A stretch of DNA of 39,389 bases from an uncultured Thiotrichaceae bacterium (GCA_964500555.1 CAZCOZ010000001.1:13708-53096), one strand, 5' to 3'. Numbered from the stretch's first letter, positions 28,927 to 35,568 are shown. The notes: generated by a model not told the origin, from the sequence alone. Translations and numbers: made by a program.

Positions 28927-30156
28927 TTAGTTATTTCTTATCCGGCTACCCTTAACACCATATTTAGCCGCTGCATTGTGGACAAATAATTTTGCTTCAT
29001 CCAGATCCGTAAAACCACTAACACTGATTCTATATACCTGCTTCCCTTTAACAACTGCTTTTTCAAGCGAGGGGGATAATCCTGCAATATCCAGTCTTTC
29101 CAGCATTTTATTGGCTTTACTTTCATTACTTAATGAAACCAGATTCACGGTCAAAATAGATTTAATTTTTTTACTTTCCTGAATGTTGCCAGCTATTTTT
29201 TCATCATTTTTACTCTGTATTTTTTCCTCTTTAGCTTTAAGTTCAATGTTTTTAGATGAAAGATTTGAGGAGGTAACATTACCACTCATCTTAGTATTAT
29301 CCAGTTTATTAACATCTATAATGCTGATGTTATTTTCTGTATTAATTTTTTTCTGGTTAATATTGTCTGCTTTAATTTTATCGGCTTTAATCTTATTCTT
29401 CACCAACTCCAACTCTTTTCTCAATGAACGAATATCACTCGTTAACGTACTAACGCTACCTGCAATCAACGTTAATTCATTCGTTGGTAATGGCACAGGA
29501 ATTATATCTATCGGTAGTATCGCCATTGACTGTATTTTTGCCTCCTGTATCTCATTGGGCTTCTTTAAAAACCTGTCACCCATTTTGGTTTTATGTTCAC
29601 GATCTATTACAGTGTAATTAGTATTAACATTCTGTACTGTTTGCTGAATAGAACTTTTTACATATGAATCTAACTTGTACATAGCCAGTCCCACTACCAC
29701 TATAGAAACAATAAATAAGAGTAACAGCTGTGTTCGCGTTATAGAATTAAATAATTCGCCAATAGAAGATGCACCTGATGAAAGCTGAAAAGTATCTTCT
29801 GACATATCGACACCCTTATGATTACCTTCAATTTGGTTCACACCCGATTCGTTACTGTTACTATTATTGCTACTGTTAGTATTTCTTTTATTGATCTGTC
29901 TTTTATTAATGGTTTTATCATAAGCAGGAGCGTTATCCTGTATGCTAGACAACACACTGCTTAAGTTATAATTTCCCGACGAATCATTTTTACCAGGGTT
30001 CTCTCTATTTTGGATGCCTCTATTTTTTAAAGAGCCCCCCTTTGCTTTTTTTATTGCTCTGTCATCTGCAGTTGTATTTAACAAATTAGTCGAATAATCA
30101 GATAGCATTGAATCTGTATCAACTGGACCACTACAAGCGGCTACTAGCGATGACAT
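28927..30156 (-). CDS. Bitopic SPOR-domain (septal/denuded peptidoglycan-binding) protein with an N/S-rich N-terminus and a coiled-coil linker
   Basis: 409 aa. N/S/K-rich low-complexity N-terminal region, one TM helix (LLLLFIVSIVVVGLAMY), a coiled-coil stretch (RSLRKELELVKNKIKADKIKADNI), and a C-terminal SPOR-like domain (LTVNLVSLSNESKANKMLERLDIAGLSPSLEKAVVKGKQVYRISVSGFTDLDEAKLF). This is a DamX/FtsN-like architecture. The start overlaps the upstream stop (TAATG), and the stop is 6 nt before the flgA ATG. Confidence 0.8.
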   Translation of the reverse strand: MSSLVAACSGPVDTDSMLSDYSTNLLNTTADDRAIKKAKGGSLKNRGIQNRENPGKNDSSGNYNLSSVLSSIQDNAPAYDKTINKRQINKRNTNSSNNSNSNESGVNQIEGNHKGVDMSEDTFQLSSGASSIGELFNSITRTQLLLLFIVSIVVVGLAMYKLDSYVKSSIQQTVQNVNTNYTVIDREHKTKMGDRFLKKPNEIQEAKIQSMAILPIDIIPVPLPTNELTLIAGSVSTLTSDIRSLRKELELVKNKIKADKIKADNINQKKINTENNISIIDVNKLDNTKMSGNVTSSNLSSKNIELKAKEEKIQSKNDEKIAGNIQESKKIKSILTVNLVSLSNESKANKMLERLDIAGLSPSLEKAVVKGKQVYRISVSGFTDLDEAKLFVHNAAAKYGVKGSRIRNN

Positions 30157-31094
30157 TAGTGCTTACCTACCTGTAACGGCTTAACTTCAGAATGATTATC
30201 AACACCATTTTTTCCAAGTGCTTTTTCGAGAAGTAATGATTTTTTTGCTCGAAGCATTAACTTACTCGCTGTATCCTCATAGGTAACTGTAGTCGCGCTC
30301 ACACTTATAGTGAATTCAATACTATTGTCTAAATAAATACATTTATCCATAAGAATAAAATCTTTTATTCTTTCAGCTGCTTCCTTCGCCTCACTATTTT
30401 CAGTACTAGGTAAAAACACAAGAAACTCATCAGCATTATTACGATAAACAATATCACTACTGCGCGCTTTTCTTTCTAACCTTCTTGAAACTTCAATAAG
30501 AAGTGCATCACCTGCAGCCCGACCATACTGACTATTAATCAGATCAAAGTCATCAATGTCAAATAACAAAATTGAAAACGGTGTTTTATAACGCTGCGCT
30601 CTTCTTACTTCTAATTCGGCTATATCCTGATAGTTATACCCACTTCTTAACCCTGTCAATTCATCACGCTGCGAAAACTGTATGGATTTTTTATAGCGTA
30701 AAGCATTACGTAACGGTAGAGTCAAACCGGCTAGTAGCACCTCAATAATTTCAATTTCATAATCCAGAAAAACACTGTCTCTCGATATTGATATCGTGCC
30801 TAATATTTCTTCTTCATATCTAAGAGTATAAATACAACTCGGATGACCTATTGTTCCATTGAGGAGATAAGTTTTTGTTGCCTCATCATTATATTCAATG
30901 CCATTACACAGAACCTTTTCTCTAAACACGTCATTAAAGTTATCCAATAACTGATAAACATCCAGTGTTTCATGTAGGTGATTAACAAACGTATCTGTTA
31001 CAGGTTCATCAACAGAATTTGCCATCATATTTTCAATCGTATAGTCCGTATAGTTTTTTTCGCTAACGTGTGTGTTGTTATTCGTTTCAGACAT
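30156..31094 (-). CDS. Degenerate GGDEF-domain protein (A-site NADEF, I-site RSSD retained) with an uncharacterised N-terminal sensor domain
   Basis: GGDEF-fold signature RDELTGL..FSILLFDIDDFDLINSQYGRAAGDALL...RSSDIVYRNNADEFLVFL. GG(D/E)EF is replaced by NADEF, and RxxD sits exactly 5 residues upstream. I prefer the ATG at 31094 (GAGGG RBS 8 nt upstream) over the ORF-track ATG at 31142, which has no RBS. Confidence 0.85.
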   Translation of the reverse strand: MSETNNNTHVSEKNYTDYTIENMMANSVDEPVTDTFVNHLHETLDVYQLLDNFNDVFREKVLCNGIEYNDEATKTYLLNGTIGHPSCIYTLRYEEEILGTISISRDSVFLDYEIEIIEVLLAGLTLPLRNALRYKKSIQFSQRDELTGLRSGYNYQDIAELEVRRAQRYKTPFSILLFDIDDFDLINSQYGRAAGDALLIEVSRRLERKARSSDIVYRNNADEFLVFLPSTENSEAKEAAERIKDFILMDKCIYLDNSIEFTISVSATTVTYEDTASKLMLRAKKSLLLEKALGKNGVDNHSEVKPLQVGKH

Positions 31095-31318
31095 ATTATT
31101 AGCCCTCGTATTAATCGTTGTAATGTATAAAGCAACTACCATGCCAAAAAATAATATTTAACTATAACAATAGCTTGAAATCTAATTCTTTAACTGTGAC
31201 AAAAATTTGTCGATACAAAAATACACAACATCGGATAACTGCTAGAAAAATGGCAGTATTTTGACACTCGGTAGAATGCAATATTTTTAACTATTTCGTC
31301 ATAGTTAAAAAATAACAT

Positions 31319-31346
31319 TAAAGTTTCCTTTCAGATAATCCGATAA
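31319..31346 (+). promoter_or_regulatory. Sigma-28 (FliA) promoter facing the REC-Hpt-REC-PAS-GGDEF-EAL gene
   Basis: The plus strand reads TAAAGTTT-N12-TCCGATAA. The -35 is exact and the -10 matches 7/8. It lies about 205 nt upstream of the ATG at 31552. Confidence 0.7.
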
Positions 31347-31551
31347 CAGGAGAAATGCCAATAGAATTCATCTAACGACTTAAAAACAACACGACTATTT
31401 AAATATAACTATTCAATAGACAACTAGTACGAAAATTATGTCTTTACCAAATCTATCTTTACCAAAAGAAATAATATCATCATCAAAAGCTGATAATTCA
31501 AATGTTGATTATGAAACATTTATTATAAAAGTATGGGTTGTGAAGTAACTA

Positions 31552-34500
31552 ATGTCTAACAATGAGCTAAAGAAAGAAGGGATAAAGAAAGAAGAGCTGG
31601 AGAAAAAAGAACGGGAGCTCGCTCGCCTGAAAGAAGTTATCGACTCGATAAAACAGAGTATTGATGAGACTGATAATACCAGTGACTCTCATCACCCCCT
31701 TTCTAACAATGCAAAATTTGACGAAAACAATATAAAAAATGCCCGGATACTATTAGCAGAAGACAATAGTATTAATCAGGATGTCATACATGAACAAATG
31801 GAGATGCTGGGCTACGAAATTGAGATCGTCGATAATGGTGTACAGGTCTTATCCATAATCAAACAGAAAAGTTATGACCTTATTCTCATGGATGCGCATA
31901 TGCCGCATATGGATGGTTTTGCTACCGCCCGAGCTATCCGTTCATTTGAGAGAAAAAATAAACGTGATGCTATTATAATCATTGCATTAACCGCAGATAT
32001 TTCACCAGGCATACAGGAACACTGCACAAGTGTCGGCATGAATGACTATCTAGCTAAACCCTTTTTTATTGATGATCTCGATAATATGCTAAAAAAATGG
32101 TTAAGTAATGCACCTATAGAAAAGTCACATACTATTGAAGTTCAGAAACCACTTTCATTAGACTCTACAGACATTTTAAATATGTCTGTTATCGAACAAT
32201 TACGAATATTAAGCCAGAAAGGTGGACGAAATACGCTAGGCAACGCCATCAGTCGCTACCGTAGTTCAGCTTTAGAACAATTAGATTCAATGCACCACGC
32301 TGCAATGAAAAAAAATTGTAAAGAATTAGCTTCAATCAGTCATAGTCTAAAATCATCCAGTGGAACGCTAGGCGTTAATCTCATTTACACAGCAGCAGCA
32401 GAAATTGAAGAATTGGCTAATACGAATAACATTGGGCATATACAACAAGCTATAACCCAACTTGAAGAAAAACTGATAATTTCCGTACAGGCACTAGAAG
32501 ATTTAGCGGAAAATTCAAAAATAATAGCACCTATAGTAACCTCACCTATGCCTGTTATAGGAAACGATCAACAGTTACTCGTTGTTGATGATAATAAGGT
32601 AACACTCGACACGCTACAAAACGCATTACAACAATTCGGTTACAGAGTTGACAGTGCCAATAACGGTGAAGAAGCATTAGCACTACTTTCAAAGAATAAT
32701 TATGATTTAGTTATTACCGATTTACAGATGCCCGTCATGGATGGTTATGATTTATGCAAAGCAATACGAAGAAAATATACTGCAGAAACATTACCTATCT
32801 TAGTATTGACCAGCACTGCAAACGATGTACACGTACATGATGCTTATGAAATAGGTATTAGTAACTTTATTGTTAAGCCGTTCAATTTTCTAAATCTTGC
32901 CTATACCATTCTATTTACAATACAGAATACACGAAATGCTCACGATTTATGGCGTAATCAACAACTTTTAGGAGTAGCAGAAAATGTAGCTCAGGTAAGC
33001 AACTGGTCATGGGAAATAGATACGCAGAAAATACAGTTTTCGAGCCATTTGCAATGTTATTTTGATCCGCTATTAGATGATATAAACACTCTCGATGAAT
33101 TTATTTCCACGATGAACCTTGATGGGATGCGTTCGGCGATTAAATCATGCCTTTCAAATAAAAAAGAAACGAGTTGGGAGCAAGAGATTATCCACTCAAA
33201 ATATGAAAAATCTCTATATATTCTGCATCGATTTTGCATCATTCATAACGAAAATAATAACTCTGTACTCATCGGAACAGTGCAAAATATATCCTCAATA
33301 CGGCAAGCAGAGCAACGCATCACCGAACTGGCATTTTATGACACACTAACAAAACTCAACAGCCGATCAAGTTTTAATAAAAAACTACAGGAATTAATAA
33401 TCAGCTCCAAACGTAAGACAAAAAAATTTGCCTTACTCTATCTAGATCTTGATAACTTTAAAAACATTAATGATAGCTTTGGACATGATGTCGGCGATCT
33501 ATTATTGAAAGAAGTCGCCAATCGTCTACGTACACTTTTAAGGAAAGATGATTTTGCAAGTCGCCTCGGTGGTGATGAATTTTGCCTACTGCTTCACGAT
33601 ATTACAGATAACCTTTCTGCTGCCAATGTCGCACAACGCTGTCTAGAAATACTGTCTCAACCTATCACGCTTGCTGAAAGAGAATTTTCACCACACGCCA
33701 GTATTGGTATAGCTATCTATCCACAAAATGGAGGTGATGCAACCTTTTTAATAAAAGCTGCTGACACAGCGATGTATGAAGCAAAAAATAATGGTAAAGA
33801 TCAATATGCTTTTTATGAATCTGCAATGACTGACGCAGCTCACCTTCGATTAGTCATCGAAAATGATTTACGTACAGCACTAAGTGACGAACAATTTGAA
33901 CTGTATTACCAACCGAAAATATCACTATCATCAGGTAACGTAACAAGCGTTGAAGCACTTATTCGCTGGAATCATCCGGAAAAAGGTTTATGTCCACCAG
34001 ACAGTTTTATACCTGAAGCTGAACGCATGGGATTAATTGCTGAGCTTGGTGAATGGGTCGTGAAGACGGCATGCAAACAAATAAAATTGTGGCGAAGCCA
34101 GGGACTTAAAGATTTACCCGTTGCAGTCAATATTTCACCAACACATTTCGAACAGGATGGTTTTGCCGAAGATATGGCAAATCTTGTTAATGATTTAGAT
34201 ATATCCCCGTCATTAATTGAAATAGAGATTACTGAAAGTACATCGCGCGACCAACGCGTATTCACCAACACCTGTAAACAACTTCGTGTACTCGGATTTA
34301 GAACCGCTATTGATGATTTTGGAACAGGTTACTCATCACTATCCGTTCTTAAAGACGCTGCAGTTGATGTACTAAAAATTGATAGAGAGTTCGTTCGACA
34401 CATTCCTAACGATTCACAATCTTCAATACTTATTGGTACGATACTCGGTATGAGTAAAGCATTGGGCCTGGAAGTCGTCGCTGAGGGTATTGAAACGGAA

Positions 34501-34644
34501 GAGCAGTTAACCGTTCTCGTCGCGATGGGCTGTCATATGGCTCAAGGTTATTATTTTAGTAAACCTGTTCCTGCTGAAAAAATTCCCGCATTAGCACAAT
34601 GTTGCTTCCGTCGTCCTAAAGCCAATCAAGTTGCATATAAATAA
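31552..34644 (+). CDS. Multidomain signalling protein: coiled coil - REC - Hpt - REC - PAS - GGDEF - EAL
   Basis: 1030 aa. REC1 has ILLAEDN..DLILMDAHMPHMDG..LTAD..YLAKP. Hpt has SISHSLKSSSGTLGV (HxxKG-type phospho-His). REC2 has LLVVDDN..DLVITDLQMPVMDG..LTS..FIVKP. A PAS-like region follows. GGDEF has an intact RLGGDEF and the I-site RKDD 5 residues upstream. EAL has an intact catalytic set (ELYYQP, VEALIRW, NISP, EIEITES, DDFGTGYSSL, KIDREF, EGIETEEQ, QGYYFSKP). Confidence 0.93.
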   Translation: MSNNELKKEGIKKEELEKKERELARLKEVIDSIKQSIDETDNTSDSHHPLSNNAKFDENNIKNARILLAEDNSINQDVIHEQMEMLGYEIEIVDNGVQVLSIIKQKSYDLILMDAHMPHMDGFATARAIRSFERKNKRDAIIIIALTADISPGIQEHCTSVGMNDYLAKPFFIDDLDNMLKKWLSNAPIEKSHTIEVQKPLSLDSTDILNMSVIEQLRILSQKGGRNTLGNAISRYRSSALEQLDSMHHAAMKKNCKELASISHSLKSSSGTLGVNLIYTAAAEIEELANTNNIGHIQQAITQLEEKLIISVQALEDLAENSKIIAPIVTSPMPVIGNDQQLLVVDDNKVTLDTLQNALQQFGYRVDSANNGEEALALLSKNNYDLVITDLQMPVMDGYDLCKAIRRKYTAETLPILVLTSTANDVHVHDAYEIGISNFIVKPFNFLNLAYTILFTIQNTRNAHDLWRNQQLLGVAENVAQVSNWSWEIDTQKIQFSSHLQCYFDPLLDDINTLDEFISTMNLDGMRSAIKSCLSNKKETSWEQEIIHSKYEKSLYILHRFCIIHNENNNSVLIGTVQNISSIRQAEQRITELAFYDTLTKLNSRSSFNKKLQELIISSKRKTKKFALLYLDLDNFKNINDSFGHDVGDLLLKEVANRLRTLLRKDDFASRLGGDEFCLLLHDITDNLSAANVAQRCLEILSQPITLAEREFSPHASIGIAIYPQNGGDATFLIKAADTAMYEAKNNGKDQYAFYESAMTDAAHLRLVIENDLRTALSDEQFELYYQPKISLSSGNVTSVEALIRWNHPEKGLCPPDSFIPEAERMGLIAELGEWVVKTACKQIKLWRSQGLKDLPVAVNISPTHFEQDGFAEDMANLVNDLDISPSLIEIEITESTSRDQRVFTNTCKQLRVLGFRTAIDDFGTGYSSLSVLKDAAVDVLKIDREFVRHIPNDSQSSILIGTILGMSKALGLEVVAEGIETEEQLTVLVAMGCHMAQGYYFSKPVPAEKIPALAQCCFRRPKANQVAYK

Positions 34645-34671
34645 TACAATCAGATATAGTCTAAATAGATC

Positions 34672-35514
34672 ATGAATAATCTTTCGTTACAACAAGAAAT
34701 AGAACAGGAAAGTAACTTACCTGTATTACCACCTGGTATATCAAATTTATTCAAAACACTGGCTGATGAAAATATCACCTACGAAGTCGTCGCAGAAGAA
34801 ATCGAAAGATTTCCAACAATTGCGATAAGAGTTGTCGCAACGGCAAACTCATCATGGGCGGCGCCGATCGCACCGATTACATCATTGCGCGATTCCTGTT
34901 CACGATTAGGCTCGCAACTGGTTCTTAGTATTTCCATCGCGTTATCTGTTTCACAGGCATTTAACCCTTCTCGTTGCCCAGCATTTGAGTCAAAAAAATT
35001 TTGGGTAAGTGCGCTATTAACTGCAGAAGCTGCATTTAATAGCGCAAAAGAAACATCGGATATTTGCCCCGATACAGCACGATTAGCTGGGTTACTCCAT
35101 AATATTGGTTTATTATGGCTCGCAGAAAATAGGCCCTTAGAAATATCGGACGCTATATCTATAAGTCAAAATGATAATGTTTCATTTACACAAACACTAT
35201 TAGAAAAATATGAGCTCGATTTATATGATGTCGGCGGTTACCTGGCGACATCATTAGAATTACCAGAAACAATCGGAACAACTATTGCCAGCTATTCAAG
35301 CAAAAATCTATCTTCGGAAAATATTGATAGCGCAGAACCTTTAATTGTTAATCATCATTACGCGCACCAATTAGCTTCTTCTGTATTATTGCATGCTGAT
35401 GCAAATGGAGAAGATATCGAAACGCCCTATTCTCACGACGACCCACATTTTCAGCAACTCATGGAAAAATTATCGCGTATTCAATCTATGGCTCAGGCTT
35501 TGTTTTTTAGTTAG
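34672..35514 (+). CDS. HDOD-domain protein
   Basis: 280 aa. LPVLPPGISNLFKTLADENITYEVVAEEIERFPTIAIRVVATANSS .. and AGLLHNIGLLWL match the HDOD (HD-related output domain) pattern. It starts 27 nt after the upstream gene and is probably co-transcribed. Confidence 0.85.
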   Translation: MNNLSLQQEIEQESNLPVLPPGISNLFKTLADENITYEVVAEEIERFPTIAIRVVATANSSWAAPIAPITSLRDSCSRLGSQLVLSISIALSVSQAFNPSRCPAFESKKFWVSALLTAEAAFNSAKETSDICPDTARLAGLLHNIGLLWLAENRPLEISDAISISQNDNVSFTQTLLEKYELDLYDVGGYLATSLELPETIGTTIASYSSKNLSSENIDSAEPLIVNHHYAHQLASSVLLHADANGEDIETPYSHDDPHFQQLMEKLSRIQSMAQALFFS

Positions 35515-35537: not shown

Positions 35538-35568
35538 AAAAAGGTTGCTCAATTTGAGCAACCTTTTT
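35538..35568. terminator. Bidirectional Rho-independent terminator between the convergent HDOD and VPLPA-CTERM genes
   Basis: Perfect 13-bp stem AAAAAGGTTGCTC / GAGCAACCTTTTT with a 5-nt loop. Each arm carries its own 5-nt A- or T-run, and the A-run extends a further 2 nt upstream, so a U-tract follows the stem on both strands. Confidence 0.88.

What the first reader, a model, noticed from the sequence alone, without database searches (positions are those of the whole stretch)
31319..35514. Sigma-28-driven REC-Hpt-REC-PAS-GGDEF-EAL hybrid plus HDOD protein next to the flagellar genes
Seen in sequence: a near-consensus FliA promoter (TAAAGTTT-N12-TCCGATAA) points at a 1030-aa protein. That protein combines two complete receiver domains flanking an Hpt domain (phospho-His in SISHSLKSSSG), a PAS-like domain, a GGDEF with an intact active site and I-site (RKDD-x5-GGDEF), and an EAL domain with all catalytic motifs. 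An HDOD gene follows after 27 nt, and a strong bidirectional terminator closes the unit. No histidine kinase domain is present. Established knowledge: sigma-28 drives late flagellar and chemotaxis genes; GGDEF domains make c-di-GMP and EAL domains degrade it; HDOD proteins are recurrent partners of c-di-GMP and motility signalling. Inference: c-di-GMP turnover is wired into the late flagellar class through a phosphorelay hub (REC->Hpt->REC within one polypeptide). Together with the divergent degenerate-GGDEF receptor gene, this forms a local writer/eraser/reader set. REC-Hpt-REC fused to GGDEF-EAL is an uncommon architecture.
Basis: partly seen in the sequence, partly recalled or inferred. Interest (0 to 1): 0.6.

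Follow-up and report, generated by a model that had tools for sequence, protein, structure and literature searches.

The report
Kinase-less phosphorelay c-di-GMP enzyme, flagellar-timed
Next to the flagellar genes lies a two-gene operon, probably switched on with the late flagellar genes, that encodes a c-di-GMP-making and c-di-GMP-degrading enzyme which kept a phosphorelay (receiver, Hpt, receiver) but lost its built-in sensor kinase, a loss that occurred several separate times among its relatives.

Summary
ORF 31552-34644 (1030 aa) scores above Pfam cut-offs for two receivers, Hpt, GGDEF and EAL. All catalytic and phospho-acceptor motifs are intact. An HDOD gene follows after 27 nt, then a hairpin terminator.

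The sigma-28 call rests on comparison, not on the single match. The site is TAAAGTTT-N12-TCCGATAA; the consensus spacer, and this genome's own fliC, flgM and motA sites, are N11. A match of this kind is expected about three times per genome by chance. But T(A/T)AAGTTT-N11/12-NCCGA heads the operon in all 14 loci examined (the window and 13 related loci), while spacers and flanks have diverged.

The protein is an in-frame deletion derivative of a soluble HisKA-HATPase-REC-Hpt-REC-PAS-GGDEF-EAL protein, which two relatives co-transcribe with a FIST (NosP-type) sensor gene. The kinase core was lost at least three times; one clade of kinase-less forms is rejected (p-AU 5.5e-18). REC1 and Hpt stay under purifying selection (dN/dS 0.07-0.20). 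So the relay probably still works, fed in trans; the donor is unknown.

It is a new variant of known kinds. No expression or enzymology is available. The scan noted sister forms on other DNA.

The parts
31319..31346 (+). Sigma-28 (FliA)-type promoter candidate: -35 TAAAGTTT (31319-31326), 12-nt spacer, -10 TCCGATAA (31339-31346).
   Evidence: Sequence. The motif is at the operon head in 14/14 loci, with diverged spacers and flanks. Consensus TAAAGTTT-n11-GCCGATAA is taken from PMC2859248.
31347..31551 (+). About 205-nt leader. It contains an in-frame 36-codon upstream ORF (31438-31548) that ends 3 nt before the start codon.
   Evidence: No Rfam match at E<=1. Folding z-score is -0.59. The upstream ORF is kept only in the closest relative L028 and is absent in L029 and L030. 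No significant FIST remnant (tblastn E 1.3).
31552..34644 (+). 1030-aa gene: coiled coil, REC1, Hpt, REC2, PAS-like, GGDEF, EAL.
31561..31674 (+). N-terminal helix (aa 4-41). This is the conserved coiled-coil leader that precedes the kinase core in long homologues.
   Evidence: Alignment A1. Predicted helix with low to moderate pLDDT. dN/dS 0.37-0.45.
31741..32103 (+). REC1 (aa 64-184): D71, D114, T147, Y166, K169.
   Evidence: Pfam. Residues invariant or nearly invariant in 32 homologues. dN/dS 0.07-0.10 within the kinase-less clade.
32182..32517 (+). Hpt helical bundle (aa 211-322), phospho-acceptor H264 in HSLKSSSGTLG.
   Evidence: Pfam 32-38 bits. H264, K267 and G274 invariant. Helix bundle at pLDDT about 88-90.
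32572..32886 (+). REC2 (aa 341-445): D346/D347, D390, T420, F439, K442.
32995..33291 (+). PAS-like domain (aa 482-580), reached through a long helix (aa 446-480).
   Evidence: Pfam PAS_3 only E 0.061. PAS fold in the model, which aligns over the PAS-GGDEF-EAL structures of P. aeruginosa PA0861 (RbdA) and E. coli DosP.
33331..33804 (+). GGDEF domain (aa 594-751) with I-site R664xxD667 and GGDEF 673-677.
   Evidence: 41% identity to the GGDEF-EAL structures of P. aeruginosa MorA and PA0575.
33862..34566 (+). EAL domain (aa 771-1005) with all catalytic motifs.
34672..35514 (+). HDOD gene (280 aa). Its 'HD' position reads HN in all orthologues.
   Evidence: Pfam 97.5 bits. It lies directly downstream in all 16 loci, and in three of them (L032, L033, L035) its listed start coincides with the last base of the enzyme gene.
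35538..35568 (.). Hairpin terminator flanked by an A-run and a T-run, between convergent genes.
30156..31142 (-). Divergent degenerate GGDEF (NADEF) gene. A syntenic neighbour, not part of the operon.
   Evidence: Called next to the module in most related loci.

Best explanation
This is a two-gene operon: a kinase-less phosphorelay-controlled GGDEF-EAL enzyme plus an HDOD partner. It is most likely transcribed by sigma-28 RNA polymerase, so it would appear only once the hook-basal body is finished and FlgM has left the cell.

The enzyme descends from a soluble kinase that carried a full His-Asp-His-Asp relay in one chain (coiled coil, HisKA, HATPase_c, REC1, Hpt, REC2, PAS, GGDEF, EAL). An in-frame deletion removed only the HisKA-HATPase core and joined the N-terminal coiled coil to the linker before REC1.

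Proposed working: phosphoryl groups enter from a kinase encoded elsewhere. They enter either at REC1 (D114) or directly at Hpt (H264) from one of the genome's Hpt-less hybrid kinases. They then pass to REC2 (D390). REC2, through the long helix and the PAS-like domain, shifts the balance between c-di-GMP synthesis (GGDEF, product-inhibited through the I-site) and hydrolysis (EAL). The non-catalytic HDOD protein, always encoded immediately downstream, acts as a partner or reader.

Shown here: the domains and motifs, the deletion origin, its recurrence, purifying selection on REC1 and Hpt, conservation of the promoter motif, and conserved synteny.

Inferred: sigma-28 dependence, direction of phosphoryl flow, identity of the donor, which enzymatic activity phosphorylation favours, and the HDOD role.
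For: Domains and motifs.

Deletion origin: alignment A1. Long homologues at 63-73% identity (P0011, P0012, P0013, P0020, P0022; 1265-1427 aa) carry HisKA+HATPase_c between the shared coiled coil and REC1.

Same locus: flgN-flgM-flgA, SPOR gene, degenerate GGDEF gene, then on the other strand the big gene followed by HDOD.

Recurrence: on a tree of the shared C-terminal 600 aa, the kinase-less forms fall in three well-supported groups, each with a long-form sister. At least 3 changes are forced. One clade of kinase-less forms is rejected (delta lnL 263, p-AU 5.5e-18). The deletion borders differ between groups.

Still functional: D114, H264 and D390 are kept in every kinase-less form. Within the kinase-less clade dN/dS is 0.07-0.10 for REC1 and 0.18-0.20 for Hpt, against 0.04-0.17 for REC2, PAS, GGDEF and EAL.

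Promoter: the motif is in 14/14 loci, and in the two loci with an intact FIST gene it sits about 90 nt upstream of that gene, which is the first gene of the operon in L034 and follows a stand-alone REC gene in L033. FliA scores 259.7 bits in the genome. In this genome the same motif type precedes fliC, flgM and motA.

Possible donors: four membrane hybrid kinases without Hpt (C1:69995-71836, C103, C131, C37), and apart from CheA/ChpA-type proteins only two other Hpt domains, one of them stand-alone.

Precedent: in Legionella pneumophila, the FIST-domain sensor NosP and the kinase NahK control the REC-GGDEF-EAL enzyme NarR, and phosphorylation shifts its synthesis/hydrolysis balance (PMC8846402; bioRxiv 10.1101/604611).
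Against: There are no expression data.

The spacer is 12 nt, against 11 in the consensus and in this genome's fliC, flgM and motA sites.

A loose version of the motif occurs 4 times in the genome against about 3 expected by chance, so the window's match alone proves nothing.

No kinase gene lies at the locus in the window's clade. The best match to the lost core elsewhere in the genome is only 44% identical, so no donor can be named.

The genome is 90% complete in 187 contigs, so absence of a FIST gene or of a relocated kinase is 'not found', not 'absent'.

dS is saturated for several pairs. The tree used a quick search and only the C-terminal half, so recombination between halves is not excluded.
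Confidence: 0.6

Rival explanations
1. Relic reading. After the kinase core was deleted, REC1 and Hpt became functionless leftovers. The protein works as a constitutive enzyme, or one gated only by REC2 or PAS (most simply a phosphodiesterase that keeps c-di-GMP low in swimming cells, like E. coli PdeH).
For: There is no kinase at the locus and no identifiable donor. This gene family erodes readily: FIST remnants, His-less kinase cores and a 762-aa stump (P0033) are seen. E. coli PdeH is a class 3, FliA-dependent phosphodiesterase (PMC6119863).
Against: Within the kinase-less clade, REC1 dN/dS is 0.07-0.10 and Hpt 0.18-0.20, as low as the catalytic domains. D114, H264, K169 and the rest of the active-site set are kept in all 13 kinase-less clusters from at least three separate losses.
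Confidence: 0.15
2. The conserved TAAAGTTT...CCGATAA element is not the working sigma-28 promoter. The operon would be read from another promoter (sigma-70 type or other), with the element a coincidence or a site for something else.
For: The spacer is N12, not N11. The leader is about 205 nt long. The genome-wide count of the loose motif equals the chance expectation. Sigma-70-like hexamers also occur in the intergenic region, but no more often than in shuffles. The homologous Legionella operon depends on RpoS, not FliA.
Against: Both boxes are kept, at 11-12 nt spacing and in the right orientation, in 14/14 loci whose proteins have diverged to about 60% identity and whose spacers and flanks are unalike. 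The locus adjoins flgA-flgM-flgN throughout. The same motif type marks fliC, flgM and motA in this genome.
Confidence: 0.12
3. Phosphate-sink or reverse-relay reading. The REC1-Hpt-REC2 module does not mainly control the enzyme. It drains or buffers phosphoryl groups from other hybrid-kinase pathways in flagellated cells, and the GGDEF-EAL output is secondary.
For: The genome has several Hpt-less hybrid kinases and only a few Hpt domains. Both receivers have complete active sites.
Against: REC2, helix, PAS, GGDEF and EAL are contiguous and highly conserved, the usual layout for receiver control of the enzyme. A sister lineage dropped Hpt and REC2 but kept the kinase and REC1 next to PAS-GGDEF-EAL, which shows that the enzyme is the point of the relay.
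Confidence: 0.08

Closest known systems
Legionella pneumophila NosP (Lpg0279), NahK (Lpg0278), NarR (Lpg0277/Lpl0329) operon
   Same: A FIST-domain sensor gene, a soluble kinase and a receiver-controlled bifunctional GGDEF-EAL enzyme are transcribed together. Phosphorylation shifts the balance between synthesis and hydrolysis (PMC8846402; bioRxiv 10.1101/604611). Two relatives of the window's operon (L033, L034) have a FIST gene ending 3 nt before the kinase-bearing version of this gene.
   Different: Here kinase and enzyme were fused, with an extra REC-Hpt step between them. In the window both the FIST gene and the kinase core are gone. An HDOD gene is attached. The Legionella operon is RpoS-dependent and FliA-independent, whereas this one carries a sigma-28-type motif.
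E. coli PdeH (YhjH), a class 3 flagellar gene
   Same: A c-di-GMP-degrading enzyme placed under FliA, so that c-di-GMP control is timed with late flagellar assembly (PMC6119863).
   Different: PdeH is a stand-alone EAL protein without receivers, Hpt, PAS or GGDEF. FliA dependence is proven there and only inferred here.
Unorthodox or hybrid sensor kinases with REC and Hpt (ArcB/BarA/TorS type), and the P. aeruginosa HptB network
   Same: His-Asp-His-Asp relay logic. Hpt-less hybrid kinases feeding a separate Hpt is an established arrangement (PMC5812489 and PMC8543379 were listed but not read; otherwise own knowledge).
   Different: The window's protein has no HisKA or HATPase_c, so it is not a kinase. 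Its Hpt is flanked by two receivers and fused to an enzyme output.
P. aeruginosa MorA, PA0575 and PA0861 (RbdA); E. coli DosP (solved GGDEF-EAL or PAS-GGDEF-EAL structures)
   Same: The C-terminal 430-570 residues align at 23-41% identity with the same fold order.
   Different: None of these has the REC-Hpt-REC module, and their inputs are membrane, PAS or haem sensors.
HDOD proteins SadB (Pseudomonas) and GsmR (Xanthomonas)
   Same: A non-catalytic HD-related domain linked to motility and c-di-GMP. SadB is reported to bind c-di-GMP (PMC6543031).
   Different: Here it is a single-domain HDOD protein, closely linked (0-75 nt) to a GGDEF-EAL enzyme gene in every locus seen. Its role is untested.

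Membership tests
Sigma-28 (FliA) promoter | -35 box TAAAGTTT | tested here: met
   8/8 at 31319-31326. Consensus from PMC2859248.
Sigma-28 (FliA) promoter | -10 box GCCGATAA with CGA core | tested here: met
   TCCGATAA, 7/8 with the core intact, at 31339-31346.
Sigma-28 (FliA) promoter | 11-nt spacer between the two 8-mers | tested here: not met
   The spacer is 12 nt. This genome's fliC, flgM, motA and STAS-gene sites have 11. Nine of the 14 loci (window included) also have 12 at the site nearest the gene.
Sigma-28 (FliA) promoter | Sigma factor present, and the site conserved in orthologous loci | tested here: met
   FliA 259.7 bits, above the cut-off. Motif in 14/14 loci.
Sigma-28 (FliA) promoter | FliA-dependent transcript start | not testable with these tools
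Hybrid/unorthodox histidine kinase | HisKA (H-box) and HATPase_c catalytic core | tested here: not met
   No Pfam hit. The alignment shows the core deleted.
Hybrid/unorthodox histidine kinase | Receiver with phospho-Asp followed by Hpt with phospho-His | tested here: met
   D114 and H264.
Receiver-controlled bifunctional GGDEF-EAL enzyme (NarR/Lpl0329 type) | REC directly upstream of (PAS)-GGDEF-EAL with intact GGDEF and EAL motifs | tested here: met
   REC2, PAS-like, GGDEF and EAL domains, with all motifs intact.
Receiver-controlled bifunctional GGDEF-EAL enzyme (NarR/Lpl0329 type) | Cognate kinase and FIST sensor encoded in the same operon | tested here: not met
   Neither is in the window, and no FIST gene was found in the genome. 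They are present in relatives L033 and L034.
Receiver-controlled bifunctional GGDEF-EAL enzyme (NarR/Lpl0329 type) | Both cyclase and phosphodiesterase activities, modulated by phosphorylation | not testable with these tools
   Needs purified protein.
HDOD (PF08668) | HDOD profile match; the catalytic HD dyad is not required | tested here: met
   97.5 bits. HN replaces HD in all 14 orthologues.
PAS domain | Profile match above the cut-off | tested here: not met
   PAS_3 E 0.061, 14 bits against a 25.6 cut-off.
PAS domain | Five-stranded antiparallel sheet with flanking helices | tested here: met
   Model residues 482-579. Full-length alignment to the PA0861 (RbdA) PAS-GGDEF-EAL structure.

The most novel reading that the evidence does not exclude
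Repeated, independent deletion of the kinase core turned a self-contained relay (probably gated by a FIST/NosP-type sensor) into an open phosphorelay hub. In cells that have finished the flagellar hook-basal body, its REC1 and Hpt collect phosphoryl groups from several Hpt-less hybrid kinases and convert them into one c-di-GMP decision, read locally by the HDOD partner and the neighbouring degenerate GGDEF protein. The recurrence would mean that selection favours opening the relay to other inputs.
Probability: 0.25. Interest if true: 0.65.

Novelty: new variant of a known kind. Interest (0 to 1): 0.45.

Why it matters
It offers a natural experiment in how signalling proteins are rewired. At one conserved flagellar-side locus, the same long relay protein has been shortened in two opposite ways: the kinase is dropped, or Hpt and REC2 are dropped. 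The kinase was dropped at least three times, and the remaining relay parts stayed under selection.

If the kinase-less form is fed in trans, it is a compact model for how orphan REC-Hpt modules integrate several kinases into c-di-GMP control. It would also show how that control is restricted to cells that already have a flagellum.

The finding also gives HDOD, a common domain of unknown mechanism, a fixed enzyme partner to test against.

None of this overturns current ideas. The building blocks and the logic are all known.

Tried and rejected
- Riboswitch or structured leader: no Rfam match at E<=1 in 31100-31650. Leader folding is no better than shuffles (z -0.59).
- Upstream ORF 31438-31548 as a conserved leader peptide or a FIST remnant: kept only in the 88%-identical relative and absent in L029 and L030. 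tblastn with FIST proteins gives E 1.3.
- Relocated kinase core, relocated membrane kinase or FIST gene elsewhere in the genome: no FIST hit. The best matches are ordinary paralogues, 44% identity to the lost core and 30% to the 459-aa membrane kinase.
- Genome-wide enrichment of the motif as evidence: 4 observed against about 3 expected, so I dropped this argument and relied on orthologous conservation.
- Link between FIST loss and kinase loss: FIST is intact in only 2 of 7 kinase-bearing loci, so the two losses are not tightly coupled.
- Receiver-class markers from PMC9981736: both receivers have the full S/T and Y/F set, so this did not separate an 'intermediate' from a 'terminal' receiver.
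- Literature: searches found no paper describing a REC-Hpt-REC-GGDEF-EAL protein or the HK-REC-Hpt-REC-GGDEF-EAL fusion. The library is partial, so this is 'not found'.

Full report
**Setting.** The window is the flagellar region of a 2.35-Mb, 40.6% G+C metagenome-assembled gammaproteobacterial genome (90% complete, 187 contigs). On the minus strand lie fliS, flaG, fliD, fliC, a TPR-sulfotransferase gene, flgL back to flgB, then flgN, flgM, flgA, a SPOR-domain gene and a degenerate GGDEF gene. The finding is the first unit on the plus strand after this block.

**Check of the observation.** The two ORFs are 31552-34644 (1030 aa) and 34672-35514 (280 aa), 27 nt apart.
- Pfam gives Response_reg in two stretches (176 bits), Hpt (32.0 bits, cut-off 24.6; 37.8 bits when the segment is scanned alone), GGDEF (168.8), EAL (255.8), and HDOD for the second gene (97.5). 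No kinase domain is found.
- The quoted motifs are in the translation. D71, K169, H264, D347, D390, K442, D667 of the RxxD I-site, D675-E676-F677 of the GGDEF motif and most EAL catalytic residues are invariant across 32 homologues down to 30% identity; D114, R664, G674 and a few EAL residues are kept in at least 90% of them.
- The PAS call is sub-threshold by profile (E 0.061). An AlphaFold2 model (mean pLDDT 82.4) shows a PAS fold at residues 482-579 behind a long helix. The model aligns over the whole PAS-GGDEF-EAL structures of P. aeruginosa PA0861 (RbdA) and E. coli DosP.
- By sequence, the closest solved structures are the GGDEF-EAL tandems of P. aeruginosa MorA and PA0575 (E 4e-106 and 6e-102, 41% identity).
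- The terminator is a 14-pair palindrome at 35538-35568 with an A-run and a T-run.

**The promoter.** The site is TAAAGTTT-N12-TCCGATAA at 31319-31346, about 205 nt before the start codon. The E. coli consensus is TAAAGTTT-n11-GCCGATAA (PMC2859248).
- The genome has a FliA gene above the curated cut-off (259.7 bits).
- Its own late flagellar genes carry this motif type with an 11-nt spacer. fliC has TAAAGTTT-N11-GTCGTTAA (window 14927-14901, minus strand). flgM has TAAAGATT-N11-GCCGTTAA (28186-28160, minus strand). A motA/pomA gene and a STAS-domain gene on other contigs have it too.
- Taken alone, the candidate is weak evidence. A loose form of the motif occurs 4 times in the genome against about 3 in second-order Markov simulations, and the spacer is one base too long.
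- The comparison is what counts. I fetched 13 loci that encode homologues at 60-88% identity, or 72% over the C-terminal half for the G017 type. Every one has T(A/T)AAGTTT-N11/12-NCCGA in the right orientation at the head of the operon. Spacers and flanks are unalike.
- In the two loci that keep an upstream FIST gene, the motif sits about 90 nt before that gene, not before the big gene.
- I take this as good comparative support for a sigma-28 promoter, perhaps a deliberately weak one.
- The leader holds no Rfam family and no unusual structure. Its in-frame 36-codon ORF is kept only in the nearest relative.

**Where the architecture comes from.** A search of the large protein collection found three groups.
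- About a dozen clusters have the same 1026-1053-aa architecture.
- Equally close clusters of 1265-1427 aa add HisKA and HATPase_c.
- More distant 1450-1690-aa proteins add HAMP or CHASE3 sensors before the same HK-REC-Hpt-REC-GGDEF-EAL chain. These include proteins of tubeworm endosymbionts.

The alignment is unambiguous. Long and short forms share the N-terminal coiled coil (ELxxKExExARLKEVIxSL). The long forms then run into the H-box (SHEIRTPMNG) and the ATP-binding domain. The window's protein jumps from the coiled coil to the linker before REC1. It is therefore an in-frame deletion of about 235 residues that removed exactly the kinase core.

The locus is the same throughout: flgN-flgM-flgA, the SPOR gene and the degenerate GGDEF gene on one strand, and the big gene plus HDOD on the other. 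Some loci also have a divergent 459-aa membrane kinase, a stand-alone receiver gene and a 386-aa FIST/FIST_C gene that ends 3 nt before the kinase-bearing gene.
- Two loci (L032, L036) keep only 57-aa and 81-aa stumps in the place of the FIST gene; the L032 stump matches FIST proteins (tblastn E about 1e-12), the L036 one was not compared.
- FIST proteins of this operon type are the NosP sensors. Legionella NosP, NahK and NarR form the characterised parallel, with NarR a receiver-GGDEF-EAL enzyme whose balance shifts on phosphorylation (PMC8846402; bioRxiv 10.1101/604611).
- The window's clade has lost the FIST gene, the membrane kinase and the kinase core. No FIST gene and no close copy of either kinase were found elsewhere in this 90%-complete genome.

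**Recurrence.** On a tree of the shared C-terminal 600 residues, rooted on the distant long forms, the kinase-less proteins form three strongly supported groups, each with a kinase-bearing sister.
- The window's clade of eight groups with P0011 (support 100).
- P0016, P0017 and P0018 group with P0014 (100).
- P0021 and P0023 group with P0024 (100).
- At least three changes are forced.
- Holding all kinase-less forms in one clade costs 263 log-likelihood units (p-AU 5.5e-18).
- The deletion borders differ: P0016 and P0023 keep a pre-H-box segment that the window's clade lacks.
- A separate clade, which includes the genus-mate G017, made the opposite cut. It removed the sequence from the first Hpt helix to the end of REC2 and kept the kinase and REC1. 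In some members (P0028, P0029) the H-box is degenerate.
- Caveats: the tree used a quick search, only the C-terminal half was used, and recombination between halves is not excluded.

**Is the orphaned relay alive?**
- All kinase-less forms keep D114, H264 and D390.
- Nei-Gojobori estimates within the window's kinase-less clade give dN/dS of 0.07-0.10 for REC1 and 0.18-0.20 for the linker plus Hpt. The other domains (REC2, PAS, GGDEF, EAL) give 0.04-0.17. Only the coiled coil is looser, at 0.37-0.45. Some dS values are saturated.
- This argues against a decaying remnant and for continued phosphotransfer, which then needs a donor in trans.
- The genome encodes four membrane hybrid kinases with a receiver but no Hpt. 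Apart from CheA/ChpA-type proteins it has only two other Hpt domains, one of them a 112-aa stand-alone protein. Entry at the Hpt level or at REC1 is therefore plausible, but no donor can be named.

**HDOD.** An HDOD gene follows the enzyme gene in all 16 loci seen. In three of them (L032, L033, L035) its listed start coincides with the last base of the enzyme gene. The HD position reads HN in all 14 orthologues, so the protein is not a hydrolase. The mechanistic role of HDOD is not established in the literature found. SadB is reported to bind c-di-GMP (PMC6543031).

**Comparison and novelty.** The parts and the logic are known.
- FliA-timed c-di-GMP hydrolysis is known from E. coli PdeH, a class 3 flagellar gene (PMC6119863).
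- Kinase-controlled bifunctional GGDEF-EAL enzymes are known from Legionella NarR.
- Multi-step relays, and Hpt domains shared by several hybrid kinases, are known.

New here is the combination:
- a complete REC-Hpt-REC module without a kinase, fused to PAS-GGDEF-EAL;
- a fixed HDOD partner;
- a conserved sigma-28-type promoter at a conserved flagellar-side position;
- at least three independent losses of the kinase core, with the relay kept under selection.

Literature searches found no description of this protein type, but the library is partial. Earlier first-stage notes of this scan describe the long form, the His-less-kinase form and a 1642-aa form on other genomes. These agree with what I found independently.

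**Verdict.** It is a new variant of known kinds, of moderate interest.

Noticed in passing
window 31438-31548 (+): A 36-codon ORF lies in the same frame as the big gene and ends at a TAA 3 nt before its ATG. It is kept, with changes, in the nearest relative (L028) but absent in L029 and L030. It is probably not functional.
   Followed up: yes
L032:3819-3992 and L036:3752-3997: Short ORFs of 57 and 81 aa lie in the place of the FIST (NosP-type) gene. The L032 one joins the FIST N-terminal 50 residues to its last 15 (tblastn E about 1e-12); the L036 one was not compared. The gene survives intact in L033 and L034.
   Followed up: partly
L026:8422-11592 (G017) and proteins P0025, P0027-P0032: A sister clade kept the kinase core and REC1 but deleted Hpt (after its first helix) and REC2 in frame. 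P0028 and P0029 also have a degenerate H-box. P0033 (762 aa) is a further eroded stump.
   Followed up: partly
G000 C67:2435-2461 (+), outside the window: TAAAGATT-N11-ACCGATAA lies 50 nt before a 120-aa STAS (anti-sigma-factor antagonist type) gene, directly downstream of a GGDEF-EAL paralogue. It recalls the Pseudomonas HptB-HsbR-HsbA route to FlgM.
   Followed up: no
G000 C62 (minus strand), outside the window: TAAAGATT-N11-GCCGATGT lies before an acidic protein of unknown function (starts MVDKTTPESTDESTD...). It may be another sigma-28 target.
   Followed up: no
L033:2107 and L031:2996: A second sigma-28-type motif lies before the stand-alone receiver gene upstream of the operon in two relatives. 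In L031 it is weaker (TAAAGTAT).
   Followed up: no
window 14927-14901 (-) and 28186-28160 (-): Sigma-28-type promoters of fliC (TAAAGTTT-N11-GTCGTTAA) and flgM (TAAAGATT-N11-GCCGTTAA). Both have CGTT rather than CGAT in the -10 box, unlike the operon studied here.
   Followed up: partly
G000 C1:69995-71836 (+), about 17 kb beyond the window's end: A 613-aa membrane hybrid kinase (HK-REC, no Hpt). It is the best match in the genome to the deleted kinase core (44% identity) and so a candidate donor.
   Followed up: partly
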